A stretch of DNA of 64,000 bases from Candidatus Rokuibacteriota bacterium (GTDB lineage: Bacteria > Methylomirabilota > Methylomirabilia > Rokubacteriales > DASRDR01): the NCBI GenBank assembly GCA_044866005.1, contig JBIOTN010000175.1, forward strand, positions 6,330 to 70,329. Reading direction: 5' to 3'. Positions 8,066 through 30,353 of the stretch are shown here, piece by piece. The notes below the pieces were generated by a model that worked only from the letters and a program-made list of their open reading frames with translations, did not search any database and was not told the origin of the DNA. The translations under genes and the position numbers were made by a program. Numbering within the stretch: the first letter of the stretch is position 1; each line of letters starts with the position of its first letter.

Positions 8066-8076
8066 GAGCGGCAGAG

Positions 8077-8835
8077 TCAGACGGCGGGGCGGGCCCGCGG
8101 CATGAAGAGCGGGTCCCGCCGGAGGCCCAGGCGGTGGGCGTAGAAGCGGCCGAGCGTCCAGAGCGTCTTCACGCCGTAGGTCACGCTCCGCCGGAAGCCG
8201 ATGGACGACGCTTCGGCCATGTAGCGGACCGGGACCGGCACGTCGCCGATCCGGAAGTCGAAGTGCACGGCCTGGATCAGGAGCTGCGAGTCGAAGACGA
8301 AGTCGTCGGAGTTGGCGTGGTAGGGGATCGTCTCGAGGACCTGCCGCGCGTAGGCCCGGAAGCCCGAGTGGAACTCGCCGAGGTTCTGCCCCAGCGCCAC
8401 GTTCTCCACCAGCGTGAGGAACCGGTTCGCGAAGTACTTGTAGACCGGCATGCCGCAGTCCAGCGCCTCGCGCCGGGTGCGGATGCGCGAGCCCAGGACG
8501 ACGTCGCAGACGCCGGCCTCGATGAAGCCCGTGAGGAACGGCGTGAGCCGGCTGTCGTACTGGTAGTCGGGATGGATCATGATGACGATGTCCGCGCCCC
8601 GCTTGAGCGCCTCGTCGTAGCACGTCTTCTGGTTGGCCCCGTACCCGCGGTTGGCGGCGTGCGCGATGACCGAGAGGCCGAGCGCCCGCGCGATCTCGAC
8701 GGTCCGATCCCGGCTCGCATCGTCCACGACGATGACCTCGTCCACGGTCTCGGGCGGGATGTCACGGTAGGTCTTCTCCAGGGTCGACGCCGCGTTGTAC
8801 GCCGGCATGACCGCGACGACCCGCAGACGGCCCAT
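8077..8835 (-). CDS. GT2 polyprenyl-phosphate sugar synthase (Dpm1/ArnC-like)
   Basis: [23 protein letters not shown]...[12 protein letters not shown] matches the GT2 DxD fold. ATG at 8835..8833, stop TGA at 8079..8077. Confidence 0.85.
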
Positions 8836-8878
8836 GGAGTCCGATTCTGCCTCATCGACGTCGCGGGGGAAAGCGTCC

Positions 8879-8887
8879 TGATACAAT
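8879..8887 (+). promoter_or_regulatory. extended -10-like element TGaTACAAT, suggesting a leaderless or very short-leader transcript for paralog C
   Basis: cctGaTACAATggg is 11 nt upstream of ATG 8898. The first ATG (8886) lies inside the hexamer. Confidence 0.3.
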
Positions 8888-8897
8888 GGGCAGGCGC

Positions 8898-11651
8898 ATG
8901 GCCTCCCCGCCTCCGCCCGCCGGCGCCGCCCGGGTCGGGATCGCTTCGACGTTCCGCGCCGGACGCCTCTTCCGCGTCGCACTCGCGGTCACCGCCCTCG
9001 GCCTCGCGATCCGTCTGGGCGCCGCCGTCACCGCGCCGATCTGGTTCGACGAGGCGACGGTCGGGCTCATGGGCCGCCACGTCCTGCGGGGGGACTTCCC
9101 GTGGTTCTTCTACGGCCAGACGTTCATGGGCGCGGCGGAGGCGTACCTCCACGCCATCCCCTTCGCCCTGTGGGGCGCCTCGGAGACGACCTTGCGCCTG
9201 TGGCCGGTGACCCTGTCGCTCGTCCACGCCGCGCTCGTCGGCCTCCTGGCACGGCGCCTCTTCGGGATGGGGCGCTTCGCCGCCCTGCTGGCCATCGTCC
9301 CCCCGCCGTTCCTCCTCAAGTGGGCGTACGACGCCCGGCTCCACTACGACGCGATCCTCGTCTTCACGCCGCTCCTCCTCCTGCTCGGCCTCGTCGTGCT
9401 CGACGCGGCCCGGACGCCGGCCGAGCGGAGCCGCGCGCTCCTGGTCTTCGCCGTCGTCGCCGGGATCGGATGGTGGATCAACCTGCTGCTCTCGCTCCTC
9501 CCCGCGGCGCTCGCGGTGGCGCTCCTCCTCGTCCGGCCACGGCTGCACCCCTCGGCCTGGGCCGCGCCCCTGGGGTTCCTCGCGGGGAGCGCGCCCTTCT
9601 GGCTCTTCTCGCTGGCTCACGGTCGGCTGGCCCTGGGCACGGCGCGGCTCGTCTCGGCGCCCGATCTGGCCGACCACGGGCGGGAGCTCGTCCTGCACGC
9701 CCTGCCGATCGTCCTGGGTCTCCCCGCGCGATGGCTCCCCGGCCTGCCGCGCCCCGGCCTGGCCGTGGCCGGCGTCGGCCTCGTCCTCGCCGCCGCCGTC
9801 GTGGCGCTCGGCGATCGCCGCGCCCGGGCGGGCGGCCGGCTCCTCCTGGCGACGCTCGTGGCGCTGACGGTCGCCTCCGTGCTGGCCACCGAGCACGGGC
9901 GGAACCTCGCGACCGAAGACCCGCGCTACCTGCTGCCCCTGGTCGCCGTCCTGCCCGTGCTGGTGGGCGGGGCCCTGGCGCGCCTTCATCGCGTCTCGCC
10001 CGTCGTGGCCGGCGCCGCCGCGCTCCTGCTCGTCCTGTCGAACGGCGCCGGCCTCATCACGCGCTACTCGTTCCTCGTCTCGCCCGCGAGGTGGCAGGCG
10101 TACCGGCTCTCCGTGCTCGGCCCGGCGCAGCGCGTGGCCTTCATGCGCGCGCGCGGGCTTACCGCGCTCTACACCCACGACCCGGACGTCCTCACCTTCG
10201 TGAGCGGCGAGCGGGCGAGCGTCTCCCACTTTTACCTGGAGTCCTACCCACCGCTGGCGCGGCACGTGGACGGCGCCGAACGCGTCGCCTACTTCTCGCA
10301 GGACCCGCCGGCCGGCTTCGCCGAGAGCCTGACGGCCGCCGGCATCCGGTTCGCGCGCATGCGCTCCCCGCTCGGGACCCTCTACACCGAGTTCACCCTC
10401 GAGCACGCCGACTACCGGGAGATCCCGCGAGAGCGGCTCGTCGCGACGGCCTCGGACCGTCCCCGGAGCGCCGCGCACGCCCTCGATCGCGACGCCGCGA
10501 CGCGCTGGGACAGCGGCGGGCCGGCGCGCGCCGGGACGTGGTTCCAGGTCGACCTCGGGCGGATCCACCCGATCGGCATGCTGGCGTGGCTTCCGGGCGG
10601 ATTCCAGGAAGTGCCCGCCGGCTTCCGCGTCGAGGCCTCGGCGGACGGCGAGGCCTGGACGACCGTCCGCGAGGCGGCGCCGTACTACGGACCGCTCTAC
10701 TGGTCCGGCGCCCATCCCCTGGGCCGCGTCCGGTGGGGCCGCGTCGAGGTGCGCTTTCCGAGCATATGGGCCCGCCATCTCAGGATCACGCACCTGGGCG
10801 AGCAGCAGCGCTTCCCCTGGAGCATCCGCGAGCTCTCCGTCTACGAGGCCCTGCCCGCGCTCACCGCGGTCCGGCCCGCCGACGTCGGCGCGACCGCCGC
10901 CGCGCTCCGTCGCGCCGGGATCGAGCGCGTCTACGCCGACCACGGCGTGGGCGCCCGGCTCGCGGCGGCCGCCGGGCAGGCCCTCGCCCTCCAGCCGGCG
11001 AACCTTCGCGTCGACGCCTACGGCTGGAGTCCCGCGCCGAACGAGCTGCCGCTCTTCCGGCCGCACGCCGACACGGCCCTCGTCCACCCCGTCGGGCTCG
11101 CCTCGGCCGAGTCGATCCAGGCCATGCTCCGGGACGCGGGCTGGACCTTCGCCGTCGAGGAGGTCGGCGGCCACCGGATCCTGAGCCGCTTCACGCCCGG
11201 CGCGCTGCCGGCGGGTGGCAGCGCCCCGCGCATCGCCCGGGTCGTCGCGTCGACCGCCGGGGCCGACGCCGCGGCCGTCCTCGACGGGCAGCCCGCGACC
11301 CGGTGGACCACCGCCGGACCGCAGCGCCCGGGCGCCTGGCTGCGGGTCGAGCTCGCGGAGCCGGCCCGGGTCGCGGGGCTCGTGCTCGAGCTCGGCCCGT
11401 TCCGCACCGACTATCCCCGGGGCCTGGTGGTCGAGAGCTCGGCGGACGGCCTCGGCTGGGACCCCGTGCGCGCCGACCTCCTGCTGCTCGGGCCGCTCCG
11501 GTGGACGGGCACGCACCTCCTCCGGGACGGGGTCGATCGCGTGCTCCTGCGCTTCGTGCCGCGACGGACCCGCGCGCTCCGGCTGACCTTGACGGGCCAG
11601 GATCCGGTTTTCGACTGGTCGGTCGCGGAGCTCCGGCTCTTCGGCGGCTGA
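8898..11651 (+). CDS. ArnT/PMT-like GT-C glycosyltransferase fused to two F5/8 type C domains, paralog C
   Basis: ORF 8886..11651. The TM domain carries the FDEA loop motif. The C-terminus has two discoidin-like modules ([26 protein letters not shown] and [26 protein letters not shown]). It is divergent from the GT2 gene at 8835. The start is ATG 8886 or 8898. Confidence 0.8.
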
Positions 11652-11737
11652 ACGCCCCGCGCCCGCACGACCCGTCGGCGAAGCCTGAGGCCCGGACACG
11701 CTGCCGTTTTCCGGCCGCCGGCCCGCCCGGGGGCCGC

Positions 11738-11746
11738 TGGTATAAT
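11738..11746 (+). promoter_or_regulatory. extended -10 promoter element TGgTATAAT
   Basis: Exact TGnTATAAT, 25 nt upstream of ATG 11771, in an otherwise ~75% GC context. Confidence 0.45.
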
Positions 11747-11770
11747 GCCCCGGTGGACGCGGGACCTTCC

Positions 11771-13192
11771 ATGCGGCTGTCCGTCGTCGTGCCGGTCTAC
11801 AACGAGCGGCTCACGCTGCCCGAGATCCTCGAGCGGATCCAGGCGGTCACGATCCCCAAGGAGATCGTGATCGTCGACGACGGCTCCACGGACGGGACCC
11901 GCGAGATGCTCCGGCAGCTCGAGGCCGAGCTCGATGCGGCCCGGCGGGCCGGCACGTTCGACGAGAAGAACGAGATCCGGGTCTTCTACCAGGAGACGAA
12001 CCAGGGAAAGGGCGCGGCGCTTCGCCGGGGGTTTGCCGAGGCGCGGGGCGACATCGTCCTGGTGCAGGACGCCGACCTCGAGTACGACCCCCGCGAATAT
12101 CCCAAGCTCATCGCCCCCATCCTCGACGGCAAGGCCGACGCGGTCTACGGCTCCCGCTTCATGGGCTTTCCCCGCCGGGTCCTCTTCTTCTGGCACCACC
12201 TGGCCAACAAGTTCCTCACGCTCGCCTCGAACGTGGCCACCAACCTGAACCTGACCGACATGGAGACGGGCTACAAGGCCTTCCGGGCGGACATCATCAA
12301 GAGCATTCCGATCCGCTCGAACCGGTTCGGGGTCGAGCCCGAGGTGACGGCGAAGCTCGCGAAGCTGCGCGCCCGGATCTACGAGGTCCCCATCTCGTAC
12401 GCCGGCCGCGGGTACTGGGAAGGGAAGAAGATCCGCTGGACCGACGGCGTGGCGGCGCTCTGGACCATCCTGAAGTACGTGGTCGTGGACGACCAGGACA
12501 ACGCCGACCCGGGATACCAGACGCTCCTGCGCCTGGGGCGCGCCGAGCGCTACAACCGCTGGATGTTCGGCCAGCTCCAGCCCTACCTGGGGCAGCGGGT
12601 CCTGGAGATCGGCGCGGGGATCGGGACCCTGACCCGCTACCTGGTCGGGCGCGACCTCGTCCTCGTCAGCGAGCTGAACCCGCGCTACGTGCGGATCCTG
12701 GCCAACACCTTCGAGCGCCACACGCGCGTCCACGTGCTGCCGCTGGACCTCGAAGGCTTCGACCCCGCGGCGCTGCGGACCCACCGGCTCGACACCATCG
12801 TCTGCCTCAACGTCCTCGAGCACGTGCAGGACGACCGCGGGGCGCTCCGGCGGCTCCACGAGAGCCTGGTCCCGGGCGGGCGGCTCGTGCTCCTCGTGCC
12901 GGCGCACCGGCGGCTCCACGGCGCCATCGACGAGGCGCTCGGTCACCACCGGCGCTACGAGCGGGCGGAGCTCGCGGCCCGGCTTCAGGAGGCCGGCTTC
13001 CAGGTCGAGCGCCTCGCCTTCTTCAACCGGCTCGGCGTGCTGGGCTGGTACCTGAACAGCGTCCTGCTGCGCCGGAGCCGCGTCCCGGGACTCCAGGTGC
13101 GGCTCCAGAACCTGCTCGTCCCGGTCCTGCGCGCCGAGGGGGCCCTCTCGCTGCCCTTCGGCCTCTCCCTGATCGGCGTGGGGCGGACGTAG
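11771..13192 (+). CDS. bifunctional GT2 (Dpm1-like) / class I SAM-dependent methyltransferase fusion
   Basis: N-terminus [19 protein letters not shown]...[11 protein letters not shown]...[10 protein letters not shown] is a GT2. The C-terminus [14 protein letters not shown]...[10 protein letters not shown] is the Rossmann-fold methyltransferase motif I. This is the real C-terminal part of track ORF 9101..13192. Confidence 0.85.
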
Positions 13193-13196
13193 CGGC

Positions 13197-13886
13197 GTGG
13201 CCTCCCCGCTCGCGCACGGGCTGGCCGGGGCCGTCGTGTACGCCGCGCTCACGCCGCGCAGCGCGACGGCGTGGGACTGGCGGCCCTGGGCGCTCGCGGC
13301 GTTCGCGGGGGCGGCGGCGGACCTGGACTTCCTGCCGGGCCTGGTCGTCGGCCATCCCAACCGCTACCACCACTGGGCCACGCACAGCCTGCTCGCCGCC
13401 GTCGCCTTCGCCCTGGTCGTGGGCGCCGTGGCGTCCCCGGCGCTCGGCTCGCTCCGCCGCCGGGCGAGCGTGCTCGGCCTCGCCTACCTCTCGCACCTCG
13501 GGCTCGACGTCCTCACCGCGCACGTGCGGGTCCAGGGCATCCCGCTCTTCTGGCCGCTCTCCGACCGCGTCTTCATCGCGCCGGTCAGCGTCTTCTGGCA
13601 CGTCCGGCACGGCCACGGCTGGGCGGCCTTCGTGAACTGGCACAACGTGGGGGCGGTCCTCCTCGAAGCGCTCCTCGTCGGCATCCCCGTCGCCCTCGTC
13701 CTCGCCTGGCGCGCCATGCGCGAGACCCGCGACGCAACAGCGCCGGCTTTCCCCGGGGGGAGGCAGGCCCGATCCGTTCGCCGCCACGGCCGGGACTCCG
13801 TCCCGGCCGCCAATCGATCAGAACGGCCGCGGCTCAGGCCCGGAGGGCCGTCGGAGGGGGGCAACGCCCCCCTCCGAAGCGTATGA
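13197..13886 (+). CDS. membrane-bound metal-dependent hydrolase (DUF457/YdjM-like)
   Basis: Multi-TM protein with conserved His clusters (HPNRYHHWATHS, HLGLDVLTAH). GTG start lies 4 nt after the preceding TAG. Confidence 0.65.
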   Translation: MASPLAHGLAGAVVYAALTPRSATAWDWRPWALAAFAGAAADLDFLPGLVVGHPNRYHHWATHSLLAAVAFALVVGAVASPALGSLRRRASVLGLAYLSHLGLDVLTAHVRVQGIPLFWPLSDRVFIAPVSVFWHVRHGHGWAAFVNWHNVGAVLLEALLVGIPVALVLAWRAMRETRDATAPAFPGGRQARSVRRHGRDSVPAANRSERPRLRPGGPSEGGNAPLRSV

Positions 13887-14851
13887 GGCGCTGGAAGCTC
13901 TGGCTCGGGATCGCGGTGAGCGCGGGGCTCCTCTACCTCGCCGGGCGCGGGGTCGAGCTGGAGGAGCTCCAGCGCTCGCTCGGCGAGGTCCGGACGGCGT
14001 GGCTCGTCCCGGTGCTCGCCAGCATCCTTGTCCGCTTCTGGCTCACGGCGCTGCGCTGGCGGATGCTCCTCCGGCCGATCAAGGCGATCGCGGTGCACCG
14101 GCTCTTCGGCGTCACCATGATCGGCTTCATGGCGAACAACGTGCTGCCGGCGCGCATGGGCGAGTTCGTCCGGGCCTACGCGCTCGGGAAGTCGGAGTCG
14201 CTCTCCAAGTCGCTCTCGTTCGCCACCATCGTCCTGGAGCGCGTGTTCGACGGCTTCACGCTGCTCGCCTTCCTCCTGGTCGGCGTCCTCGCCCGCCGGC
14301 CGGAGCCCTGGCTCGTCTGGTCGGCGGTCGGCTCCTTCTGCCTCTACCTGGGCGTGCTGGGCGGACTGCTCTGGTTACGGCACGGGCGCGGCCTCGGCGC
14401 GCTGCTGGCGTGGCTGCCGGAGGCCCTCCGCCGCCGGGCGGCCGGGCCCCTCGATTCGTTCACGCTCGGGCTCGACGTCTTGAACGACGGCCGGGCGCTC
14501 GGGCTCGTGGCCCTGCTCTCGCTCGGGATCTGGCTCGTCAACGTCGCGGGCTTCTACGCGATGTTCCTGGCCTTCTCGCTGGATCTCCCGCTCGACGCGG
14601 CGTTCCTCGTCCTCGCCATCATCGCGGTCGCGCTGGTCATCCCCTCGACGCCCGGCTACGTGGGGCCCTTCCAGGCGGGAACGGTGCTCGGGCTCGCCCT
14701 CTTCGCGGTGCCGAAGGCCACGGCGCTGTCGCTCTCCATCGTCTACCACGCCGTCAACTACGTCCCCATCACCCTCATCGGTCTCGCCTACCTGGGGGTC
14801 ATGAACCTGACGCTCGGCGAGCTCCGCGCGGCGGGGGAGAAGGTCTCGTGA
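13883..14851 (+). CDS. flippase-like TM protein (UPF0104 / MprF C-terminal-like)
   Basis: MRRWKLWLGIAVSAGLLYLAG..., 8 predicted TM helices. The ATG overlaps the upstream stop as ATGA. It is the real part of ORF 13271..14851. Confidence 0.8.
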   Translation: MRRWKLWLGIAVSAGLLYLAGRGVELEELQRSLGEVRTAWLVPVLASILVRFWLTALRWRMLLRPIKAIAVHRLFGVTMIGFMANNVLPARMGEFVRAYALGKSESLSKSLSFATIVLERVFDGFTLLAFLLVGVLARRPEPWLVWSAVGSFCLYLGVLGGLLWLRHGRGLGALLAWLPEALRRRAAGPLDSFTLGLDVLNDGRALGLVALLSLGIWLVNVAGFYAMFLAFSLDLPLDAAFLVLAIIAVALVIPSTPGYVGPFQAGTVLGLALFAVPKATALSLSIVYHAVNYVPITLIGLAYLGVMNLTLGELRAAGEKVS

Positions 14852-15837
14852 GCGGGCCGGCGGGACGGCCGCCGGACGTGGCCGGCATGGTGTCGATCGT
14901 CGTCCCCGTCTACAACGAGGCGCAGAACGTCGGCCCGTTGCTGGAGAGCGTGCGCGACGTGCTCGACGGGCTCGGCCGCCCCTGGGAGCTGATCGTCGTG
15001 GACGACGGCTCGACCGACGACACGGCGGCGCGGCTGCGGGAGCTGACGGCGCGGGTGCCGGCGCTCCGGGTGGTGCGCCTGCGGTCGAACTTCGGGCAGT
15101 CGGCCGCGCTGGCGGCGGGATTCGACCTGGCGCGGGGCGAATTCGTCGTCACGATGGACGGGGACCGCCAGAACGACCCGGCCGACATCCCGCGGCTCCT
15201 GGACGAGCTCAAGGACGGCTACGACGTCGTGAGCGGATGGCGGCGGGAGCGGCGAGACCCCTTCTGGTCGCGGCGCGTCCCCTCCCGCCTGGCGAACGCG
15301 CTCATCTCCTGGATCACCGGGGTGCGCCTCCACGACTACGGCTGCGCGCTCAAGGTCTACCGGCGCGAGATCCTCCGCGACATCCAGCTCTACGGGGAGA
15401 TGCACCGGTTCCTCCCCGCGCTCGCCCGCTGGGTGGGCGCGACGGTCGGCGAGGTTCCCGTCACGCACTGGCCGCGACGGAGCGGCGTCTCGAAGTACGG
15501 GATCGGACGGACGGTCCGCGTGCTGCTCGATCTCCTGACCGTGAAGTTCCTGATGAGCTACTGGACGCGACCGATCCAGATCTTCGGCCTCCTGGGCCTC
15601 GCGGTGGGCGGGAGCGGGATGCTGCTGGCCGTGGTCCTCTCGTATCAAAGGATCGTCCAGGGCGTGCCGCTGGCGAACCGGCCGATCCTGCTGCTGGCCG
15701 TGCTGCTCGTCGTCGTGGGCGCGCAGTTCGTGGGCATCGGCCTTCTCGGAGAGATGATGGTCCGCACCTATCACGAGTCCCAGCGGAAGCCCGTCTACAG
15801 CGTGCGAGAGATCGTCTCCGGCGAGGACCGCCCGTGA
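14848..15837 (+). CDS. GT2 polyprenol-phosphate glycosyltransferase (GtrB/CsbB/ArnC-like) with C-terminal 2-TM anchor
   Basis: MVSIVVPVYNEAQNV...LIVVDDGSTDDT...TMDGDRQNDP, with C-terminal TM helices. GTG 14848 overlaps the upstream stop (GTGA) and follows the RBS GGGGGAGAAGG. ATG 14887 is the alternative start. Confidence 0.85.
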   Translation: MSGPAGRPPDVAGMVSIVVPVYNEAQNVGPLLESVRDVLDGLGRPWELIVVDDGSTDDTAARLRELTARVPALRVVRLRSNFGQSAALAAGFDLARGEFVVTMDGDRQNDPADIPRLLDELKDGYDVVSGWRRERRDPFWSRRVPSRLANALISWITGVRLHDYGCALKVYRREILRDIQLYGEMHRFLPALARWVGATVGEVPVTHWPRRSGVSKYGIGRTVRVLLDLLTVKFLMSYWTRPIQIFGLLGLAVGGSGMLLAVVLSYQRIVQGVPLANRPILLLAVLLVVVGAQFVGIGLLGEMMVRTYHESQRKPVYSVREIVSGEDRP

Positions 15838-16613
15838 AGACCGGGCCTGCCGGCCGGACGGGGGCGCGCGGCCTCCTCCTCCTGGCCGTCGTGCTGGCCC
15901 TCGCCGCCTGCGGCGGCAGCAGCAGCAAGACGACGGGGCCCAATGCCCCGACGAGCTTCAACTTCGGGTCGAACGATCCCCGGCGCGCCACCGCCTTCGG
16001 GGACAGCATCACGGTCGGCGTCCTCGACCTGCGGGTCCGGGGGAACCTCACCACGAGCAGCAACTACCCCGCCGTCCTCCAGGGGATGCTCCAGGGCCTG
16101 GACCCCGCCTGGCGCGTCGTCAACCGGGGCGTGGGCGGCGAGCGGACGGCGGGCGGGTTTCGGCGGTTTTCCAGCGTGCTGGCCGCCGACCACCCGGGGT
16201 TCGTGCTCATCATGGAAGGGACGAACGACGCCTCGGAGGAGGACGATCCCGCCTTCATCGCCGCGAACCTCGACGCGATGGTGGGGCAGGCGCAGGACAA
16301 TCACACGATCCCGATCCTCGGCACGATCCCGCCGAACTTCCGGAACGATCCGCAGGCCCGCGCGATCATCGACGAGGCGAACGTGCTCATCCGGAACATC
16401 GCGCAGGCGCGCGGCATCGTCCTCGCGGAGATCTTCAACGGGATGAACGATCGCACGCTCTTCGGCATCGCGCCCGACCGGGACCCCATCCACCCCAACG
16501 AGCGCGGCTACGGGGTCATGGCGGGCATCTGGTTCAGTGCGATGCGGCAGGCCATCCCGCCGTCGGCGGCGCCGCCGCCCATGGCCCAGAAGCAGCGTCG
16601 GGCCCGGCGGTAG
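15834..16613 (+). CDS. SGNH/GDSL hydrolase-family lipoprotein
   Basis: Signal peptide plus lipobox LALAAC. GDSI motif (AFGDSITVG) and C-terminal DxxH (DPIHPNERG). GTG 15834 overlaps the upstream TGA (GTGA). Confidence 0.8.
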   Translation: MKTGPAGRTGARGLLLLAVVLALAACGGSSSKTTGPNAPTSFNFGSNDPRRATAFGDSITVGVLDLRVRGNLTTSSNYPAVLQGMLQGLDPAWRVVNRGVGGERTAGGFRRFSSVLAADHPGFVLIMEGTNDASEEDDPAFIAANLDAMVGQAQDNHTIPILGTIPPNFRNDPQARAIIDEANVLIRNIAQARGIVLAEIFNGMNDRTLFGIAPDRDPIHPNERGYGVMAGIWFSAMRQAIPPSAAPPPMAQKQRRARR

Positions 16614-17266
16614 GTCTTCAGCCGCAGCCCTCGACCCCGAACGCCACGCTGGTCGACACAACCGACGGGACGCGAAGCCTACTCACTGACGCCATCGACT
16701 CCACGCTCGCGCTGACGGACGCGGGCGCCGCCGTCGCGACCGAGTACACCTACGAGCCCTTCGGCGCCACCACGGTGACGGGCGCACCTTCGACGAGCCC
16801 GGCCCAGTTCACCGGCCGCGAGGACGACGGGACCGGGCTCTACTACTATCGGGCCCGGTACTACCACCCTTCCCTGCAACGATTCGTCAGCGAGGATTCC
16901 CATGTGGTCCCGGTGTACTGGGTGTGTTCTGGCGGACCCGATGTCGGGGGGCGCGTCCGGGTTCTTGTCTCAAACGATCCACGGGAGTTCAATCTGTACA
17001 TGTACGCATTGAACAGTCCCACCGGCTTCGTGGATCGCCACGGCCTTCAGGCAACGCGTCCCTGGGACACGTGTCGACCGTGTCCAGCCGTGCCGAACTG
17101 CACCCTATTCGAGGTCTCAGAGTTCAGCCTACCGGTCGCGCCCGGCATACCCTTCTTCAACTACTGGCGGCTGTGCGTCTACGGCTGTTGGGAGCGAAAG
17201 AGGGGCATCTACAAGCACGAAGAGCCGATCCTCTGCGGAGTCGGACCGACTCCCCTGCAGCCTTGA
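16614..17266 (+). pseudogene. orphan Rhs core C-terminal fragment plus C-terminal toxin (CT) domain, lacking the N-terminal body
   Basis: The frame translates to ...YTYEPFGATTVTGAPSTSPAQFTGREDDGTGLYYYRARYYHPSLQRFVSEDS...NLYMYALNSPTGFVDRHGL. This is the hallmark end of the Rhs repeat-associated core (PxxxxDPxGL), followed by a 73-aa Cys-rich tail. The frame opens directly after the GDSL gene stop, so no upstream Rhs body exists. GC content falls across this region. Confidence 0.65.
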
Positions 17267-17300
17267 GGCGGCGGCTCTGGCAAGCGGCAGAGGGCAAACA

Positions 17301-18266
17301 ATGAGGCGTGTTAAGCAGACCGCGACCGTCCTGCTTGCAGGAATCGGAATGTGGTGGGTGGCTGGGCATGCCACAGCATCTTCTGATGACCTTCTCTCCT
17401 GCAAGATGGCGCAGAAGGTGCCACCGGTTCACTGGATCCCCCTGAACAGGGGAGATCACCTGCAACTCGGTCCCTATGACGCCCTGCTGACCTGCCGCGG
17501 GTCGCATGCTGTGTTCCGAGCAACGCGACCGTTTGGTCTTCGCATAGCTTGGGAGCAAGACGGGACCTCGGTGATCGGCACGATCGGTGAAGAGCATTTC
17601 GTGACGGTCCGAGCCATTCCCGGGGAGTCTCGGCCAGGCGTCCAGATCGAAGTGCTGGACGTCGTAGGCCAGGTCTTCTATTCCCGCGATCGACGAGAGA
17701 TTCGTCGGGCTTTGGTGGCGGAATCCCGGAGTGGGCCCTTTAACGAGGATAGTGAAGGCGAGGACAGGCGCTACGAAGACCTGGTGCAGCTCGGGTGGCG
17801 AACCCTGTCGATGAACGACAGGCTCGGCCCGTGGGACATGATTTGGACGCAGGCTGATGGCAGGCTCGAGGTCGAATTTGAGGGCCCAAATAACCGGATC
17901 GGCGTCTACAACGACGTGCTTGATGGACAGGCTCGCCCCACTGGCAAGGTGCGATTCCGCCCCAACGAATTCTGGGTCGTGGTACCGGGCTATTTCTCTG
18001 ACGCCAGGGTGAACAAGATCATCGGCGAGGTGTGGATCGCCACCGATCGCGCAAGGGTGGAGAGCTTCTTCCAGAAGTATCGGACCCATCACCTTTGGAG
18101 CCAATTCCCCAGCCCAGCCGAGAAGCGGGCCTGGTACTCAGAGTTGGAAGAGAGGCGGAAGCTAGACCCCGGCGGCGCTTACCAGGTATGGCAGCAGGTC
18201 CTCAAGGAGTCCGAGAAGGCGAAACGAGAGTGGGAGCGGATGCTCAGGAGCGATGTGCTGGAATGA
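17301..18266 (+). CDS. hypothetical secreted protein (candidate immunity/cargo protein of the Rhs-CT islet)
   Basis: ATG follows the RBS GAGGG and lies 35 nt after the Rhs-CT stop. N-terminal signal peptide (MRRVKQTATVLLAGIGMWWVAGHA). Local GC is about 55% against about 72% background. No recognisable domain. Confidence 0.6.
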   Translation: MRRVKQTATVLLAGIGMWWVAGHATASSDDLLSCKMAQKVPPVHWIPLNRGDHLQLGPYDALLTCRGSHAVFRATRPFGLRIAWEQDGTSVIGTIGEEHFVTVRAIPGESRPGVQIEVLDVVGQVFYSRDRREIRRALVAESRSGPFNEDSEGEDRRYEDLVQLGWRTLSMNDRLGPWDMIWTQADGRLEVEFEGPNNRIGVYNDVLDGQARPTGKVRFRPNEFWVVVPGYFSDARVNKIIGEVWIATDRARVESFFQKYRTHHLWSQFPSPAEKRAWYSELEERRKLDPGGAYQVWQQVLKESEKAKREWERMLRSDVLE

Positions 18267-19068
18267 GCCGCCTCAGGTGACGGCCCCCGGACGGCCCTCA
18301 CCCTCGAACCTGTGCAGCACGGTAAGTGCGCTTCGGGGCCGTCGGGCCGCCCGTAGATTCCGGGGGTTAGGCTGCACACGCCCCCGCGCTTTATCTTGCG
18401 CTACACGTTGCGAACATCCTGACCGGGCTGGTAGCTGAAGTCGAACGCGTCCAGCCCTTTGACAAAGGGGAAGCGGGCGAGGTGGGGGTCGGCGCGGAGC
18501 TACGGGTCAGGAGCTGGCGATGCCTGGCTGTCCGTATCTGCCGTTACTACGTGCCGGCGCGAAGTCCTATGACTCCGTGTGAGTTCTACAGAAACTTGAT
18601 GCTTTCCCAAACCCCCCAAGAGGCCCCGGCAGGTGCCGAATGTGGTTTCGAGCTCGCTCGTTTCCAGGGGAGGTAACTGGCCGTAAGGAGCCACACTAAT
18701 CCGAGTCGCGTAGACAGTCCGCTTGTACCCAAGCAAGGGTGTGGGACTGGCACCGCCTTGACCGGACGGCTCGCAGGTCCACTATGTGCGGATCTCGGGG
18801 AGCGACGCGACGCCGGGCAGCAACGTCTTCGAGCACACCAGTAGCCCCACCCGCTTCTACAAGTCCCGGATCGCGTGGAATCCCGCCGACGCCGCCTGGA
18901 ACCTCACGCTCAAGGACGGGACGGTCTACGTCCACGGCGATGTCGCCCCGCTCCAGGCGATCCGGGACCTGCGCCGCGGACCAGCGGATGACCTTCGGCC
19001 TGCCTGAAAATCCCTTAGCACCTGTCCCCCTCCGGCGCCGGACACGGGGAGCCGTACGGAGGGGACAG

Positions 19069-19601
19069 ATGCCTCGCAAGAAGGCGACACGATCCGAGGG
19101 GACCGGGGGAACGCTCGCTCGGGCGGCCCGGTCGCCGTGGCCCCTGGAAGTCCGACTGCGGGTGGCCCGGGCGGTGGTCGAGGAGGGGCTCGCCTTGGCG
19201 ACGGTGGCGCGCGCCTGCGGCGTCAGTGCGAAGACGGCGATCCTGTGGGTGCGTCGGTATCGGGCACGCGGGGTGGACGGGTTGCTCCCGGTGACGGCGC
19301 CGCCGGTTCCCGCGACGGGGGCCGAGGCGCGACGGGAGGCCGTGGTGGGGATCCGGCGGGCGCATCCCGAGGTGGGGACGCGCCGGATCCGAGATATCCT
19401 CGAGCGGTTTCACGCCTGGGCGTGTCGGAGCGGACGGTGCGGCGGATTCTGCACGCGGAGGGCCTGAGCGCGCCGCCGGCCCCGCCGCGGGCGAAGGCCC
19501 GGCCGGCCGAGCGGCGGTTTGAGCGGGCGGAGGCGAATCAGCTCTGGCAATCGGATCTCTTCACGTTTCTGCTGCGGCGGCACGAGCGGGTCTACCTGGC
19601 C
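19069..19601 (+). mobile_element. IS481-family transposase remnant (frameshifted near 19410 and 3'-truncated)
   Basis: HTH part (LEVRLRVARAVVEEGLALATVARACGVSAKTAILWVRRYRARGVDGLLP, ...RIRDILER). It then continues in another frame (LGVSERTVRRILHAEGLS...RFERAEANQLWQSDLFTF, the start of the DDE integrase core) and breaks off at the stop of the sigma-54 activator gene. A 12-13 bp inverted repeat (19023..19035 / 19056..19067) lies just upstream of the ATG. Confidence 0.7.
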
Positions 19602-21044
19602 TTAGACGCCGGCGGCGCCGGCGCCGGGCTCTTCCTCGGGCTCGCTCTCCTCGTCGCCGCGGAGGAGCTGGTACTCCTTGAGCTTGTTGTAGAGCGTCTT
19701 GTAGTTGATCCCCAGCAGCCGCGCCGCCTGGGCGCGGTTCCAGCGCGTCCGCTCCAGCGTGCGGACGATCAGGTCCCGCTCGGCCGTCTCGACGACGTGC
19801 CGCACCACGTCCTTGAGCGTGTTCCCCGGCCCCGCCCCGGCCCCCGGGGCGGTCGCGACGAGCGGCGCGCCCCGGCCCCGGAACTCGCCGGGCAGGTCGC
19901 GCAGGGTGAGCGGGCCCTCGGCGAGCACGGCGGCGCGCTTGAGCGCGTTCCGGAGCTCCCGCACGTTCCCCGGCCAGGGGTAGGCCCGCAGGGCCGCGAG
20001 CGCCTCGGCCGTCACGCCGGGCACGGGCTTTCCCAGCTCCTCGCCGATGCGCTGGAGGAAGTGGTCCACGAGCGCCGGCAGGTCCTCGTTCCGCTCGCGA
20101 AGCGCGGGGGCGTGGATGGTGAACTCGTTGAGCCGGTGGTAGAGGTCCTCGCGGAACCGCCCCTCGCGGATGGCGTCCTCGAAGTTGACGTGCGTCGCCG
20201 CGACGATCCGCACGTCGATGGGGATCTGGCCGCGCCCGCCCAGGCGCGTGATGGCGCGGTCCTCGAGCACGCGGAGGAGCTTCATCTGCGTGGAGAGCGG
20301 GAGGTTGCCGATCTCGTCGAGGAAGAGCGTGCCGCCGTGCGCCAGCTCGAACCGGCCCAGGCGGCGCTGGGTCGCGCCGGTGAAGGCCCCCCGCTCGTGT
20401 CCGAACAGCTCGGACTCGACGAGCGTCTCGGGGAGCGCCGCGCAGTCGAGCGGGATGAAGGGGCCCCGCCGGCGCTTGCTCTGGGCGTGGATGGCGTGGG
20501 CGACCAGCTCCTTGCCCGTCCCGCTCTCGCCGCGGATCAGGATCGTCACGTCGTACGGGGCGACGCGCGCGATGAACTGGCGCAGCTCCTCCATGGCGGC
20601 GCTCCCGCCGACGAGGTCCTCGGGGCTGGCGCGCTCGCGCATGGCGGCGCGGAGCGTCTGGACCTCGGCGTGCAGGCGCCGGGTCTCCAGCCCCTTCTCC
20701 ACGACCACCCGCACCTCCTCGAGGTGGACCGGCTTGATCAGGTAATCGAAGGCGCCCAGCTTCATCGCGCGGACGGCGGACTCGATCGTCCCGTGCCCGG
20801 TGAGCATGACGACCGGGACGTGCTCGTCGATCTCCCGGATGCGCCGGAGGACGTCGAGCCCGTCGCCGTCGGGGAGGCGGAGGTCGAGCAGCACCGCCTC
20901 CGGCGCCTGGGCCTCGAAGGCGGCCACGGCGGCCTGGGCGGTCTCGGCCGTCGCGACCTCGTAGCCCAGCTCGCCGAGCGCGCGGGAGAGGATCCAGCAG
21001 ATCTCGGGCTCGTCGTCAACCAGCAGCAGGCGTGTCCGGACCAT
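19602..21044 (-). CDS. sigma-54-dependent response regulator (NtrC family enhancer-binding protein)
   Basis: REC domain (LLVDDEP...D54), AAA+ sigma-54 interaction domain (GESGTGKE, GAFTGA, ESELFGHE) and C-terminal Fis-type HTH. Confidence 0.9.
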   Translation of the reverse strand: MVRTRLLLVDDEPEICWILSRALGELGYEVATAETAQAAVAAFEAQAPEAVLLDLRLPDGDGLDVLRRIREIDEHVPVVMLTGHGTIESAVRAMKLGAFDYLIKPVHLEEVRVVVEKGLETRRLHAEVQTLRAAMRERASPEDLVGGSAAMEELRQFIARVAPYDVTILIRGESGTGKELVAHAIHAQSKRRRGPFIPLDCAALPETLVESELFGHERGAFTGATQRRLGRFELAHGGTLFLDEIGNLPLSTQMKLLRVLEDRAITRLGGRGQIPIDVRIVAATHVNFEDAIREGRFREDLYHRLNEFTIHAPALRERNEDLPALVDHFLQRIGEELGKPVPGVTAEALAALRAYPWPGNVRELRNALKRAAVLAEGPLTLRDLPGEFRGRGAPLVATAPGAGAGPGNTLKDVVRHVVETAERDLIVRTLERTRWNRAQAARLLGINYKTLYNKLKEYQLLRGDEESEPEEEPGAGAAGV

Positions 21045-23244
21045 GGCTCGGCTCCGGTAGGTCGGACCGTTCCGGCGCGCCGCCGCCCGGCGGCGCGCTC
21101 CGGGCGGCGGGGAGGAGGACCATGAAGGTCGTCCCGCGCCCCGGCTCGCTGGCGGCCTCGATCGCGCCGCCGTGCTCCTCGATGATGCGGCGCGTGATGG
21201 CGAGGCCCAGGCCAGTGCCGCGACGCTTGGTGGTGTAGTAGGGCTCGAAGATGACGCCGAGGTGGGAGCCCTCGATGCCGGTCCCCGTGTCCGCCACCGT
21301 GACCGCGACGTTGCCGCTCCGTGGCGCGGGCGTCGCGCCGAACGTGAGCCGGCCGCCGTGCGGCATCGCGTCGAGCGCGTTCAGCGCGAGGTTGAGCAAG
21401 GCTTGCTCCAGCAGCCGCGCGTCGAGCATCAGGCCGGGGAGCCCGGGCTCCGCCTCGACCCGGACCTCCACCGACCGCTGGCGCGCCCGCACGCGGACGA
21501 ACGCCGCGACCGCCTCGAGGATCGGCTCGATCCGCGCGGGCTGTGGCCGGAGCTCCAGGGGGCGCGAGAAGCTCAGGAGCCCCTCCAGCGACTCGTCCAT
21601 GTCGCGCACCTTCCGGTCCGCCGCGTCGAGGAGGGCGCGCTGCTCGTCCCCCACCGGGAGTCGGTCTCGCAGGTACTGGACCGTGGTCCCGATCACCGTG
21701 AGCGGGTTCCGGATCTCGTGCGCCAGGGCCGCGGCCAGTCGCCCGATCGTCGCGTACCGCTCGGCGCGCGCCAGCCGCACCTCCAGGCGCAGCCGCTCCT
21801 CGAGGCCGAAGGTCGTCGCGCGGAGCAGCCGCGCGTGGCGCACGGCGACCGCCAGCTGCTCGGCGATGGGACGCAGCAGGCGCAGGTCGCGACGCCGGAA
21901 GCGGCCCCGCGTCCGGCTGACCAGGGTGAGCGCGCCGACGCTCTCCCGCTCCACGACGAGCGGCACGGTGGTCAGCGAGCGCGCGCCGGGCAGCTCGCGG
22001 AGGAACGGCAGCACGGGGCGGCTCGACGTGGCGATGTCGGCGACGATCGCGGCGCGGCCGGTGCGCATGGCCTCACCGCTGACGGTCTCCCGGAACTCGG
22101 GCGACCACGGGAGCGTCCGTGGCGGCCGGCCGACCTCGCCCACCATCACCTGCCCGCCGTTCCCCTCCGCGTCCATCACCACGATCGCCGAGGCGTCGAA
22201 GGCCGTGATCCGCCGGATCTCCTGCGTGGCGACCCGGAAGATCTCCTCCAGCGACAGGCAGGCCGAGATCGCCTTGCCGATCCGCCGGGTCGCCCGCACC
22301 TGCCGGTTCCGCTCCCGGAGGTCGTCGCGCAGGCAGACGTTCACGATGGGGACCGTCGCGACGTCGGCCAGCTCCAGCAGCCGCTCCGCCAGCGGCTCGC
22401 CGAACGGCCGATCGCCATCGAGCCGCCCCACTGCCAAGAGGCCGACCAGCTCGTCGTCCTGGTGCAGCGGGATGAGGACGGCCGCGGAGACGGCGTCGTC
22501 CCGGAGGTACTCGCGCGGCACGGCGAGGGGGAAGGGCGGCGCGCAGAGGGCGGCGGCGCCCAGCAGCCGGTCGAGGTCGGTCGGCGGCAGCAGCGGCCGT
22601 GGGCCGCGCCGGCCGAGCACGCGGCGCGCCGCGCGCAGGGTCAGGTCCTCCCCGGGCCGCTCGCGCAGCCAGAGGCCGCCCACGTCCCCGTCGGTCAGCG
22701 TCACGGCGAGATCGAGGACCTGCTGACAGATCTCGTCGAGGTCGCGGCCCGGCTTGGCCAGCCGGAGCATCTGGCGGAAGTGGTTGACGTGGAGCTCGGC
22801 GTGGCGGGCGCGGCGCCGCGCCGCGTCGAGCTCCGCGACGACGGCGAGCGCGGGGCCGAGCACGGCCGCCCGCGCCCGCGTCTCCGCCGACACGCCGGCG
22901 CCCGGCCGGCCGAGCAGGAGGAGGACGCCCCGCGTCTCCTCGGCCGAGCCCACCGGGAACGCGACCGCCTCCGGCCACTCGGGGGTGAGCGGCGCATCGG
23001 GGACGAGGGCGGCCGCCGCCGGGGACCGGCTCGCCTGCCGGGCGAAGGCGACGACCGGCGCCTGCTGGAAGGGCTCCTCGGTCGGATGGGCGCCCACGAG
23101 ACGCACGTCCGCCTCGACGGCGAGGAAGAGCGCCCCGCCCTCGCCATGATCGAGGGCCGAGGCGAGGAGATCCCGCGTCACTCGAGCACCGGCACTCCCG
23201 AGGGCCTGGCGAAGGCCGTGAGCCAGGTCCAGGGGCCACGTCAT
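21016..23244 (-). CDS. GAF-domain sensor histidine kinase
   Basis: Several GAF-like modules, an HisKA H-box (LAAALAHEIRNPL) and HATPase_c (DTGTGI...GTGLGLAI). It overlaps the activator gene by 29 nt. Confidence 0.85.
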   Translation of the reverse strand: MTWPLDLAHGLRQALGSAGARVTRDLLASALDHGEGGALFLAVEADVRLVGAHPTEEPFQQAPVVAFARQASRSPAAAALVPDAPLTPEWPEAVAFPVGSAEETRGVLLLLGRPGAGVSAETRARAAVLGPALAVVAELDAARRRARHAELHVNHFRQMLRLAKPGRDLDEICQQVLDLAVTLTDGDVGGLWLRERPGEDLTLRAARRVLGRRGPRPLLPPTDLDRLLGAAALCAPPFPLAVPREYLRDDAVSAAVLIPLHQDDELVGLLAVGRLDGDRPFGEPLAERLLELADVATVPIVNVCLRDDLRERNRQVRATRRIGKAISACLSLEEIFRVATQEIRRITAFDASAIVVMDAEGNGGQVMVGEVGRPPRTLPWSPEFRETVSGEAMRTGRAAIVADIATSSRPVLPFLRELPGARSLTTVPLVVERESVGALTLVSRTRGRFRRRDLRLLRPIAEQLAVAVRHARLLRATTFGLEERLRLEVRLARAERYATIGRLAAALAHEIRNPLTVIGTTVQYLRDRLPVGDEQRALLDAADRKVRDMDESLEGLLSFSRPLELRPQPARIEPILEAVAAFVRVRARQRSVEVRVEAEPGLPGLMLDARLLEQALLNLALNALDAMPHGGRLTFGATPAPRSGNVAVTVADTGTGIEGSHLGVIFEPYYTTKRRGTGLGLAITRRIIEEHGGAIEAASEPGRGTTFMVLLPAARSAPPGGGAPERSDLPEPSHGPDTPAAG

Positions 23245-23296
23245 GCGGCTTTATTGTCTCACGCCGGCGCGGGCGAAGCACTCACCGGCGGCGGGG

Positions 23297-24850: not shown

Positions 24851-24869
24851 CGACGCCCCCCGGGGTCCC

Positions 24870-25178
24870 TCACGCGGCCCGGCTCGAGACGAGAGCGTCG
24901 GCCAGCGAGGTGAGGACCGGCATGAGGCTCGGCGAGGCGAGGATGCGGACCCGGCGCTCCCGCGCCAGCTGCCGGAGACCGCGCGAGAGGACCTCCAGCC
25001 CGAAGGCTTCGACGACGGTCAGTCCCGACAGGTCGAGCACGAGCTCGCGAGCCTGCGACGGCGTGCGGGCGAGCACGTCCAGCACGTGGCAGGCCGTCGA
25101 GCCGTCCACCGCGCCCTCCAGCGTCACCGTACATCGGTCCTGGCGCTGGCGGCGGCGCACTCGCAGGCGTGGCGCCAT
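24870..25178 (-). CDS. STAS-domain anti-sigma-factor antagonist
   Basis: MAPRLRVRRRQRQDRCTVTLEGAVDGSTACHVLDVL...LVLDLSGLTVVEAFGLEVL. Preceded by the RBS GGGAGG. Confidence 0.7.
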   Translation of the reverse strand: MAPRLRVRRRQRQDRCTVTLEGAVDGSTACHVLDVLARTPSQARELVLDLSGLTVVEAFGLEVLSRGLRQLARERRVRILASPSLMPVLTSLADALVSSRAA

Positions 25179-25191
25179 GCAATCCTCCCGG

Positions 25192-26830: not shown

Positions 26831-26867
26831 GCCAGACCCCCAACGGCGCTGCGTCCCCGGCCCGCGG

Positions 26868-28082: not shown

Positions 28083-28090
28083 GGGTGCCC

Positions 28091-30331: not shown

Positions 30332-30353
30332 CAGACGCTCCTTGCGGTGTCGC

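What the first reader, a model, noticed from the sequence alone, without database searches (positions are those of the whole stretch)
16614..17266. Orphan Rhs C-terminal toxin cassette grafted directly behind a housekeeping GDSL gene
The frame encodes the last Rhs repeats and the diagnostic core end (GLYYYRARYYHPSLQRFVSEDS ... NLYMYALNSPTGFVDRHGL), then a 73-aa Cys-rich variable tail (QATRPWDTCRPCPAVPNCTLFEVSEFSLPVAPGIPFFNYWRLCVYGCWERKRGIYK...). There is no upstream Rhs body; the frame opens immediately after the GDSL stop codon. This is the classic signature of a displaced orphan rhs-CT module left by recombination or horizontal transfer. The small Cys-rich CT does not resemble any toxin domain I recognise.
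Basis: partly seen in the sequence, partly recalled or inferred. Interest (0 to 1): 0.7.

Follow-up and report, generated by a model that had tools for sequence, protein, structure and literature searches.

The report
Decayed orphan Rhs toxin–immunity cassette
This is the broken-off tail of a bacterial Rhs "toxin-cocoon" gene plus its intact antidote gene, stranded behind a lipase gene in an uncultured Rokubacteria genome. Such orphans are ordinary, but the small six-cysteine toxin and its large exported antidote belong to two rare, undescribed protein families.

Summary
Window 16661-17266 encodes the last 129 codons of an Rhs core (TIGR03696, E 5e-18) and a 72-aa six-Cys tail. There is no Rhs shell anywhere in the 64 kb, and no start codon before GTG 16775.

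It is a 5'-truncated orphan rhs-CT followed by its partner gene (17301-18266, a 321-aa exported protein). In a 99.9%-identical sister MAG the same site holds 1732 more bp with a second orphan cassette, so the window is a deletion derivative. Bases 16614-16660 are an out-of-frame scrap of that other cassette. An Rhs N-terminal scrap (18762-18968) and an IS481 transposase remnant follow.

The tail is a real but rare family, about a dozen members among 1.84 billion representatives. It ends 1250-1750-aa TIG/Kelch-DUF6531-YD Rhs proteins elsewhere, and a homolog of the 321-aa gene followed it in all 8 loci examined.

Only cysteines and one aromatic residue are conserved in the tail, and the partner carries a signal peptide or lipobox. 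This suggests a disulfide-stapled, non-enzymatic toxin acting outside the cytoplasm. The family also carries a ~24-aa insertion in the Rhs protease plug that travels with the cassette.

Neither family matches Pfam, PDB sequences or PDB folds. The kind is known; the member is new.

The parts
15837..16613 (+). GDSL-family lipoprotein gene. Left boundary of the island, not part of the cassette.
   Evidence: Pfam Lipase_GDSL_2 3.5e-27. GC3 0.95. Lipobox LAAC seen in the translation.
16614..16660 (+). 47-nt remnant of a different orphan Rhs core end (core #1). In the sister MAG it continues into ...IAEDPIGLAAGDTNLYGYVLNNPVKLKDPLGL plus CT-A. Here it is out of frame with what follows.
   Evidence: Identical to L006 8249-8295. 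L006 sequence and ORFs.
16660..16661 (.). Deletion junction. 1732 bp that are present in sister MAG GCA_044870165.1 are missing here. No microhomology at the join.
   Evidence: blastn of L006 against the window. Junction sequences, with the same junction in a third assembly, L008.
16661..16900 (+). Rhs core fragment #2 (TDGTRSLL...YYYRARYYHPSLQRFVSEDS) with host-like codon usage.
   Evidence: TIGR03696 E 5e-18. 43-50% identity to the C-terminal ends of full-length Rhs proteins. GC3 0.875.
16901..17047 (+). Non-canonical end of the core. A ~24-aa insertion with a conserved Cys (HVVPVYWVCSGG...VLVSNDPREF), then NLYMYALNSPTGFVDRHGL.
   Evidence: Family alignments A4 and A2. GC3 drops to 0.69 here. 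The canonical arrangement is two DPLGL motifs 17 residues apart (PMC8636562).
17048..17266 (+). 72-aa six-Cys CT tail plus stop codon: C-x2-C-x5-C ... C-x-Y-x-C ... C.
   Evidence: 12-member alignment A6, in which only Cys and one Tyr/Phe are conserved. AF2 gives three long beta strands with pLDDT 85-97. No Pfam, PDB or fold match.
17301..18266 (+). Cognate immunity-type gene. 321 aa, with a signal peptide (MRRVKQTATVLLAGIGMWWVAGHATA|SS) and GAGGG six nt upstream of the ATG.
18267..18761 (.). Spacer with no recognisable gene (GC 0.63). Possibly a decayed Rhs 5' region carrying stop codons.
   Evidence: Translation. No Pfam hit even with the stops masked. No Rfam hit.
18762..18968 (+). Rhs N-terminal scrap. 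It corresponds to the segment just after DUF6531 in full-length Rhs proteins.
   Evidence: 45% identity to L003 Rhs aa 269-322 (E 1.5e-8 within the window). 43% over 74 aa to P0280 aa 767-839. GC3 0.89.
19069..19601 (+). Truncated, frameshifted IS481-family transposase remnant. An HTH part, then ...NQLWQSD... in another frame. It abuts the stop of the sigma-54 response regulator gene (19602-21044, minus strand).
   Evidence: NF033577 transpos_IS481 1.4e-12 over profile positions 2-90 of 284. Pfam HTH_23, HTH_32 and LZ_Tnp_IS481. ORF translations.

Best explanation
Window 16614-19601 is the wreck of an rhs locus in a Candidatus Rokuibacteriota (Methylomirabilota) genome. It lies between a GDSL lipoprotein gene and a sigma-54 two-component pair, inside an exopolysaccharide gene cluster.

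The flagged segment is a 5'-truncated orphan rhs-CT. It holds 129 codons of Rhs core (from 16661) and a 72-aa tail. It has no shell, no secretion domain and no usable start, so it is inert as a toxin. At most it is a recombination substrate.

Its partner gene (17301-18266) is intact, has a ribosome-binding site and encodes an exported protein. That gene is probably what selection keeps, as protection against neighbours that deliver this toxin.

In intact systems the same cassette ends 1250-1750-aa Rhs proteins of a non-T6SS type (at least one has a Sec signal peptide) that carry TIG/Kelch/Big_5 domains, DUF6531 and a YD shell. The following steps are inferred. The shell encloses the tail. Aspartyl autoproteolysis after D-x-x-G-L releases a ~70-aa peptide. 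The peptide folds into a three-stranded beta sheet stapled by three disulfides in the cell envelope. It acts by binding or inserting at an extracytoplasmic target rather than by catalysis. It is neutralised one-to-one by the exported partner protein.

Shown here: the anatomy, the truncation, the deletion, the family membership, the linkage of CT and partner, and the export signals. Inferred: toxicity, disulfides, site of action, non-enzymatic mode, and expression of the partner gene.
For: Rhs identity: TIGR03696 E 5e-18.

No shell in the window. No start codon before GTG 16775 and no promoter-like site.

Sister MAG contig JBIOYM010000024.1 is 99.8-99.97% identical on both sides and carries 1732 extra bp. 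These hold a second core end, CT-A, an NHL-repeat gene and 55 more codons of core #2. A third assembly shares the window's junction.

The CT family was recovered by an exhaustive profile search. Only about a dozen full-span members exist among 1.84e9 representatives, including a 1681-aa Rhs. Full-length carriers: L003, L004, L034 and L035.

A partner homolog lies directly downstream in 8 of 8 loci (31-39% identity, E 5e-34 to 4e-42).

Partner homologs have signal peptides or a lipobox and a conserved Cys pair.

The tail conserves only 6 Cys and one Tyr/Phe across 12 members. AF2 models the tail as a confident beta meander in which C67 and C96 fall opposite each other by register. That register is my reading of the strand limits.

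The GC3 break at ~16900 marks a foreign cassette.

The orphan concept, and CTs shared between orphans and full-length genes, come from PMC3150448.
Against: No experiment or expression data exist. Toxicity of the tail and protection by the partner rest on position and analogy.

No full-length rhs is known in this genome. The source genome is not in the searchable genome collection, so the reservoir role cannot be assessed.

Partner homologs also occur alone, without Rhs, in at least 3 metagenome contexts. That fits orphan immunity genes, but it also fits an independent function.

A 321-aa immunity protein for a ~70-aa toxin is unusually large.

The first protease motif is degenerate here (EDS) and the spacing is changed, so autocleavage is unproven for this family.

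The AF2 models rest on shallow alignments of 7-9 sequences, with mean pLDDT 67-69.

C-x2-C plus C-x3-C could bind a metal instead of forming disulfides.
Confidence: 0.8

Rival explanations
1. Silent cassette that is still in use. The orphan serves as a template that recombines, through its 240 nt of host-like core sequence, with a full-length rhs elsewhere in the genome and so swaps that gene's toxin tip, as in Salmonella. This is compatible with the best explanation. It differs only in claiming present function for the toxin part.
For: Orphan activation by recombination is documented (PMC3967940, listed; PMC3150448). Core #2 has host-like GC3 of 0.875, as expected if it is homogenised with a resident rhs. 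The third assembly's contig breaks 80 bp upstream of the GDSL stop, just before the Rhs-derived DNA begins. That would fit a repeat present elsewhere in the genome.
Against: No full-length rhs lies in the 64-kb window or in the sister contig stretch examined. The deletion shortened the homology arm from about 400 nt to 240 nt. The neighbouring Rhs and IS scraps indicate decay rather than maintenance.
Confidence: 0.2
2. The fragment is translated from GTG 16775 into a 163-aa protein. Together with the downstream gene it works as an intracellular toxin-antitoxin-like module, as proposed for the Salmonella orphan Rhs.
For: NCBI annotation calls this 163-aa ORF (P0001). There is a precedent in PMC7043789.
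Against: No Shine-Dalgarno sequence lies before GTG 16775 (upstream sequence agcccttcggcgccaccacg) and there is no promoter-like site. The product would lack a signal peptide while the partner is exported, so the two would sit in different compartments. A six-Cys disulfide scaffold would not form in the cytoplasm.
Confidence: 0.05
3. The tail is not a toxin. It is a released peptide with another role (signal, adhesin tip or metal-binding module, comparable to teneurin C-terminal peptides), and the downstream exported protein is its receptor, chaperone or processing factor.
For: The tail has no conserved catalytic residues. The partner is four times larger than the tail. Partner homologs also occur without Rhs. 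The carriers have adhesin-like TIG/Kelch/Big_5 N-termini and no T6SS markers.
Against: The architecture is exactly that of polymorphic toxin and immunity pairs: hypervariable tails, strict adjacency, orphan copies, and a second unrelated CT with its own partner next door in the sister genome.
Confidence: 0.1
4. Assembly artefact. The join of GDSL to the Rhs fragment is a chimeric or collapsed contig.
For: These are MAG assemblies. Rhs cores are repeats, and one related contig ends near this point.
Against: The junction 16660|16661 recurs base for base in a second assembly, GCA_044867585.1. Both flanks are collinear with the sister contig over 8.3 and 10.6 kb. The breakpoints are at non-homologous core positions with no shared k-mer, so repeat collapse cannot produce them.
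Confidence: 0.03

Closest known systems
Orphan rhs-CT/rhsI modules (Dickeya dadantii 3937 rhsC locus, Yersinia pseudotuberculosis, Salmonella Typhimurium LT2; PMC3150448, PMC3967940)
   Same: A 3' core fragment without an initiation region, a variable CT and an adjacent immunity gene. The same CT is found on full-length Rhs proteins in other bacteria. The sister strain has tandem orphans, and one relative has an in-frame stop in the retained core (L001).
   Different: No full-length rhs lies upstream. The orphans sit directly behind an unrelated GDSL gene, among Rhs and IS scraps. The organism is an uncultured Rokubacteria lineage. The carriers elsewhere are TIG/Kelch-type Rhs proteins (a Sec signal peptide is visible on L003), not PAAR/T6SS-type. 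The variable cassette begins about 50 codons before the DPxGL-type motif rather than at it.
Canonical Rhs/TcC C-terminal aspartyl-protease plug (two DPLGL motifs 17 residues apart; PMC8636562; PDB 7q97, 4igl, 6h6e)
   Same: The NLYxYxxNxPxxxxDxxGL segment aligns to Teneurin-like, TcC and Rhs chains in the PDB. Both Asp positions are retained (ED at 16895-16900, VD at 17033-17035).
   Different: The first motif is EDS/EDPH followed by a ~24-aa Cys-containing insertion, so the two Asp are 46 rather than ~22-24 residues apart. The second motif is DRHGL here, and DENGA or DAGGL in relatives. Cleavage has not been tested.
Envelope-acting Rhs and T6SS toxins with non-cytoplasmic immunity (for example the pore-forming Tse5-CT; PMC10684867, from its listing)
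   Same: The inferred site of action is outside the cytoplasm. The immunity protein carries export or membrane signals. The mode of action is non-enzymatic.
   Different: There is no sequence or fold similarity. The tail here is a soluble-looking six-Cys beta sheet, not hydrophobic helices. This is a comparison of how it may work, not of membership.
Small disulfide-rich beta-sheet bacteriocins (for example laterosporulin, PDB 6lwy)
   Same: A ~50-70-aa beta-sheet peptide with three presumed disulfides, acting from outside the cytoplasm. 6lwy aligns over 48 of its 49 residues.

Membership tests
Rhs / YD-repeat polymorphic toxin | RHS repeat-associated core domain (TIGR03696) at the end of the conserved region | tested here: met
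   E 5.1e-18, 65.3 bits against a cut-off of 32.5, profile positions 1-76 of 76.
Rhs / YD-repeat polymorphic toxin | YD/RHS-repeat shell (PF05593, PF25023) in the same protein | tested here: not met
   No Pfam hit in the fragment. tblastn with 1250-aa and 1752-aa Rhs proteins finds only 16667-17236 and 18762-18929 in the 64 kb. The feature is met in relatives L003, P0134 and P0280.
Rhs / YD-repeat polymorphic toxin | PxxxxDPxGL motif demarcating the CT | tested here: inconclusive
   The window has P-TGFV-D-R-H-G-L: Pro at -5, Asp, Gly and Leu are present, but Arg replaces the Pro after Asp. Relatives have DPTGL, DPLGL, DENGA and DAGGL.
Rhs / YD-repeat polymorphic toxin | Two DPxGL-type protease motifs about 17 residues apart (PMC8636562) | tested here: not met
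   The first motif is EDS and the two Asp are 46 residues apart because of a ~24-aa insertion conserved in this CT family. Autocleavage itself cannot be tested with these tools.
Rhs / YD-repeat polymorphic toxin | Immunity gene immediately downstream of the CT | tested here: met
   17301-18266 starts 34 nt after the stop codon. Homologs follow the CT family in 8 of 8 loci. Protection itself was not tested.
Orphan rhs-CT/rhsI module (Poole et al. 2011) | Only a 3' piece of core plus CT, lacking the N-terminal region and translation initiation signals | tested here: met
   Homology starts at 16661. No ATG/GTG/TTG lies in frame from 15758 to 16774, and GTG 16775 has no SD. No promoter-like site.
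Orphan rhs-CT/rhsI module (Poole et al. 2011) | [quoted passage not shown] | tested here: met
   L003 (1250 aa), L004 (>1752 aa), P0134 (1681 aa) and P0280 (1718 aa).
Orphan rhs-CT/rhsI module (Poole et al. 2011) | Located downstream of a full-length rhs gene in the same locus | tested here: not met
   GDSL and exopolysaccharide genes lie upstream. The sister contig has only a second orphan there. The rest of the genome could not be searched.
Described toxin domains (Pfam Ntox/Tox families, PDB) | Sequence or fold match of the CT tail | tested here: not met
   [not shown]
Described immunity or other protein families for the 321-aa partner | Sequence or fold match | tested here: not met
   [not shown]
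IS481-family insertion sequence | Complete transposase (HTH plus DDE/rve domain) with terminal inverted repeats | tested here: not met
   Only profile positions 2-90 of 284 match. The rest is frameshifted and cut off at 19601. No flanking inverted repeats were found.

The most novel reading that the evidence does not exclude
This CT family may define a new class of Rhs cargo: a ~70-aa, six-cysteine, non-enzymatic mini-protein that is oxidatively folded in the envelope. It would kill by binding an extracytoplasmic target, and it would be neutralised by a dedicated ~30-kDa periplasmic binder. It would co-evolve with a Cys-bearing insertion in the Rhs aspartyl-protease plug, so that the exchangeable cassette includes part of the plug itself.
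Probability: 0.3. Interest if true: 0.55.

Novelty: new member of a known kind. Interest (0 to 1): 0.38.

Why it matters
Orphan Rhs cassettes are textbook material, so the locus itself changes nothing.

Its value is as a pointer to two uncharacterised, rare protein families that are strictly linked across soil and groundwater metagenomes. The toxin tip has no catalytic signature, and the immunity protein is exported.

If the tip is confirmed as toxic, it would add a small disulfide-rich binder to the mostly enzymatic repertoire of Rhs cargo. It could also reveal a new envelope target. The plug insertion bears on how Rhs cocoons accommodate and release cargo.

The paired strains give a clean natural example of how orphan arrays erode: a 1.7-kb illegitimate deletion that removes one cassette and truncates the next.

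Tried and rejected
- Translating from 16614 as given is the wrong frame and gives stops.
- Pfam on the fragment, the partner and the N-terminal scrap found nothing. Pfam on all family members also found nothing.
- A word-indexed search with the partner alone found only one relative. It needed the three-sequence profile.
- A genome-contig scan with the partner profile found nothing, so the source genome and this family are absent from 185,579 species representatives at that pattern.
- The afdb50 fold library was unavailable.
- I tested whether CT-A and the NHL gene of the sister cassette are distant relatives of this pair. They are not.
- I looked for a decayed DUF6531 in the spacer 18267-18761, with the stop codons masked. 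It was not detected.
- Repeats, tRNAs and Rfam families around the island gave nothing informative.
- The apparent 'VFSR' match between window 16614 and the sister ORF's 'MDEVFSRTN' is a coincidence. The DNA differs and lies on the other side of the deletion.

Full report
**What is there**

The window is 73.8% G+C. The GDSL gene 15837-16613 (Pfam Lipase_GDSL_2, 3.5e-27) has GC3 of 0.95. Downstream, in the frame with pos%3==2, the sequence reads ...TDGTRSLLTDAIDSTLALTDAGAAVATEYTYEPFGATTVTGAPSTSPAQFTGREDDGTGLYYYRARYYHPSLQRFVSEDSHVVPVYWVCSGGPDVGGRVRVLVSNDPREFNLYMYALNSPTGFVDRHGL. A 72-aa tail with six Cys follows, ending at TGA 17264-17266.

NCBIfam TIGR03696 (RHS repeat-associated core domain) matches over its full length (E 5.1e-18, 65.3 bits against a cut-off of 32.5). 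Pfam finds nothing. The frame is open from 15758, overlapping GDSL, but has no ATG, GTG or TTG before GTG 16775, and that GTG lacks a Shine-Dalgarno sequence. No sigma-70-like promoter is found between 16400 and 19700.

tblastn with two full-length Rhs proteins finds no Rhs shell anywhere in the 64 kb.

**The neighbourhood is a wrecked rhs locus**

Directly downstream lies an intact ORF, 17301-18266. It encodes 321 aa, has GAGGG six nt before the ATG, and has a signal peptide ending HATA|SS.

Then comes a 495-bp spacer with no recognisable gene.

Next is a scrap, 18762-18968, that matches the segment just after DUF6531 in full-length Rhs proteins. It is 45% identical to L003 aa 269-322 and 43% identical over 74 aa to P0280 aa 767-839.

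After that is a truncated, frameshifted IS481-family transposase remnant, 19069-19601 (NF033577, 1.4e-12, profile positions 2-90 of 284). It abuts the stop of a sigma-54 response regulator gene on the other strand.

The flanks are an exopolysaccharide cluster: glycosyltransferases, Wzz/GNVR kinase, Wzy_C, a flippase and Bac_transf. No secretion-system genes, tRNAs or Rfam families are present.

**A sister genome shows how the junction arose**

The 163-aa NCBI ORF shares its 90% cluster with a 210-aa variant from GCA_044870165.1. That contig (L006) is 99.84% identical to window 8366-16660 and 99.97% identical to window 16661-27266. It carries 1732 extra bp between the two stretches.

The extra DNA encodes four things:
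- the end of another Rhs core (...IAEDPIGLAAGDTNLYGYVLNNPVKLKDPLGL);
- a proline-rich, five-Cys tail (CT-A);
- a 316-aa NHL-repeat gene;
- 55 more codons of the core that precedes our tail (...GRRWTKTINGAQTDFLYDGLNPVQELSGAGVLANVLTGLRVDEVFSRTN|TDGTRSLL...).

It follows that window 16614-16660 is a 47-nt remnant of orphan core #1, read out of frame. Homology to core #2 starts at 16661, and the window is a deletion derivative of a two-orphan array.

The breakpoints lie at non-homologous core positions and share no microhomology. A third assembly (GCA_044867585.1, L008) has the identical junction. This argues against an assembly artefact. Only one base differs between the strains across 16661-18300.

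**The tail and the downstream gene are two real, linked, rare families**

Among 1275 Rhs-core hits, three short proteins share both an unusual insertion in the core end and a Cys-rich tail.

An exhaustive profile search of 1.84 billion representatives found 298 proteins at E ≤ 0.001. Most of them match only the shared core motif. The sequences retrieved added about five more members spanning the insertion and tail, including a 1681-aa Rhs.

The downstream protein has only nine or so relatives, and none among 185,579 species-representative genomes.

In every locus where DNA downstream of this tail family is available, a homolog of the 321-aa protein follows immediately. These loci are window/L006, L001, L002, L003 (same as L013), L004 (same as L005), L015, L034 and L035.

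Four of these tails end full-length Rhs proteins of 1250 to more than 1750 aa. Those proteins carry TIG, Kelch or Big_5 domains, DUF6531 and many RHS repeats, with no PAAR or VgrG. The L003 protein starts with a Sec-type signal peptide. L001, like the window, has an in-frame stop in the retained core.

Partner homologs also occur alone, without Rhs, in at least three contexts. This is as expected for orphan immunity genes, but it does not prove that role.

**Where the variable cassette starts**

GC3 is 0.875 for 16661-16900. It falls to 0.69 for 16901-17047 (insertion to DRHGL), 0.76 for the tail and 0.72 for the partner gene.

The family-specific sequence likewise starts at the insertion. Its pattern is EDP-H-V-x-L-T-x-W-x-C-S..., about 24 aa, then S-x-D-P-x-D-F-N-L-Y. 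Canonical Rhs proteins have two DPLGL motifs 17 residues apart, and the catalytic Asp lies in the second (PMC8636562). In the window the two Asp are 46 residues apart, and the motifs read EDS and DRHGL. The exchangeable unit therefore includes part of the protease plug. Whether cleavage still occurs is unknown.

**What the tail may do**

Across 12 members the tail keeps only five invariant Cys, a sixth Cys in 11 of 12, and one Tyr/Phe. The pattern is C-x2(4)-C-x5-7-C ... C-x-[YF]-x-C ... x13-16-C, with no conserved His, Asp, Glu or Ser.

AF2, using a 9-sequence alignment, gives a confident three-stranded antiparallel sheet for residues 67-116 (pLDDT 85-97). The insertion is modelled poorly. 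By strand register, C67 and C96 face each other. That pairing is my inference, because no coordinates were available.

I therefore infer a disulfide-stapled, non-enzymatic toxin that acts outside the cytoplasm and is neutralised by stoichiometric binding. I put roughly 0.5 on this mechanistic part. A metal-binding C4 site instead of disulfides cannot be excluded.

**Organism**

A dihydrolipoyl-dehydrogenase-like protein from the window is 66-76% identical only to Candidatus Rokuibacteriota / Methylomirabilota MAGs. One of those comes from the same accession series as the sister assemblies. No paper in the library mentions both Rokubacteria and Rhs.

**Verdict**

This is a genuine orphan rhs-CT and immunity cassette, a well-known kind of feature (PMC3150448, PMC3967940). 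The toxin half is dead in this genome, and the immunity half is intact and probably the selected part.

What is new is the membership:
- an undescribed six-Cys tail family with a co-inherited plug insertion;
- an undescribed family of exported partner proteins;
- a lineage where Rhs systems have not been discussed.

Interest is moderate to low (0.38). The novelty class is a new member of a known kind.

Noticed in passing
L006 8249-9671 (sister MAG GCA_044870165.1, absent from the window): A second orphan cassette. It has a canonical core end (EDPIGLAAGDTNLYGYVLNNPVKLKDPLGL), a ~50-aa Pro/Val/Ile-rich linker and a five-Cys tail (KKCKQDNLC...LCYYECQDG...GCP), followed by a 316-aa NHL-repeat protein (PF01436, 3.3e-6). 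The tail and partner are unrelated to the window's pair by hhalign.
   Followed up: partly
L010, L011, L012, L014 (JGI metagenome contigs, 47-50% GC): Homologs of the 321-aa partner protein stand alone, with no Rhs-CT upstream. In L012 no Rhs lies within 8 kb. These may be orphan immunity genes in unrelated, lower-GC organisms.
   Followed up: partly
window 16901-16975 and alignment A4: The ~24-aa insertion between the two protease motifs carries one conserved Cys (W-x-C-S). With it, the region from the insertion to the stop codon has an odd number of Cys (7 in the window). Its role is unknown; it could pair with cargo or be structural.
   Followed up: no
L008 position 1 (= window 16534): The contig of the third assembly starts 80 bp before the GDSL stop, just in front of the Rhs-derived DNA. 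This could reflect a repeat or strain heterogeneity at this site.
   Followed up: no
window 19069-19601: IS481-family transposase remnant. The HTH part is intact as a 132-aa ORF, then a frameshift leads into ...NQLWQSDLFTFLL..., which is cut off exactly at the 3' end of the convergent sigma-54 response regulator gene. No terminal inverted repeats were found.
   Followed up: partly
window 1-16613 and 21016-35114: A large exopolysaccharide or cell-surface glycan cluster surrounds the island. It includes YfhO-like, F5/8 type C, glycosyltransferase-methyltransferase, YdjM, LPG_synthase_TM, Wzz/GNVR tyrosine kinase, Wzy_C ligase-like, a flippase, Bac_transf and STAS-domain proteins.
   Followed up: partly
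window 42513-49243: An AddB-like (PD-(D/E)XK, ADDB_N) and AddA/UvrD-like helicase-nuclease pair, followed by a class-III aminotransferase. These are ordinary housekeeping genes.
   Followed up: partly
[not shown]
   Followed up: no
L003 1-789 and 6122-6997; L004 6746-8056; L035 1607-3928: The intact rhs loci carrying this cassette are flanked by further genes with RHS-repeat and TIG or Big_5 domains. This suggests arrays of several large Rhs or Ig-like surface proteins rather than T6SS islands.
   Followed up: partly
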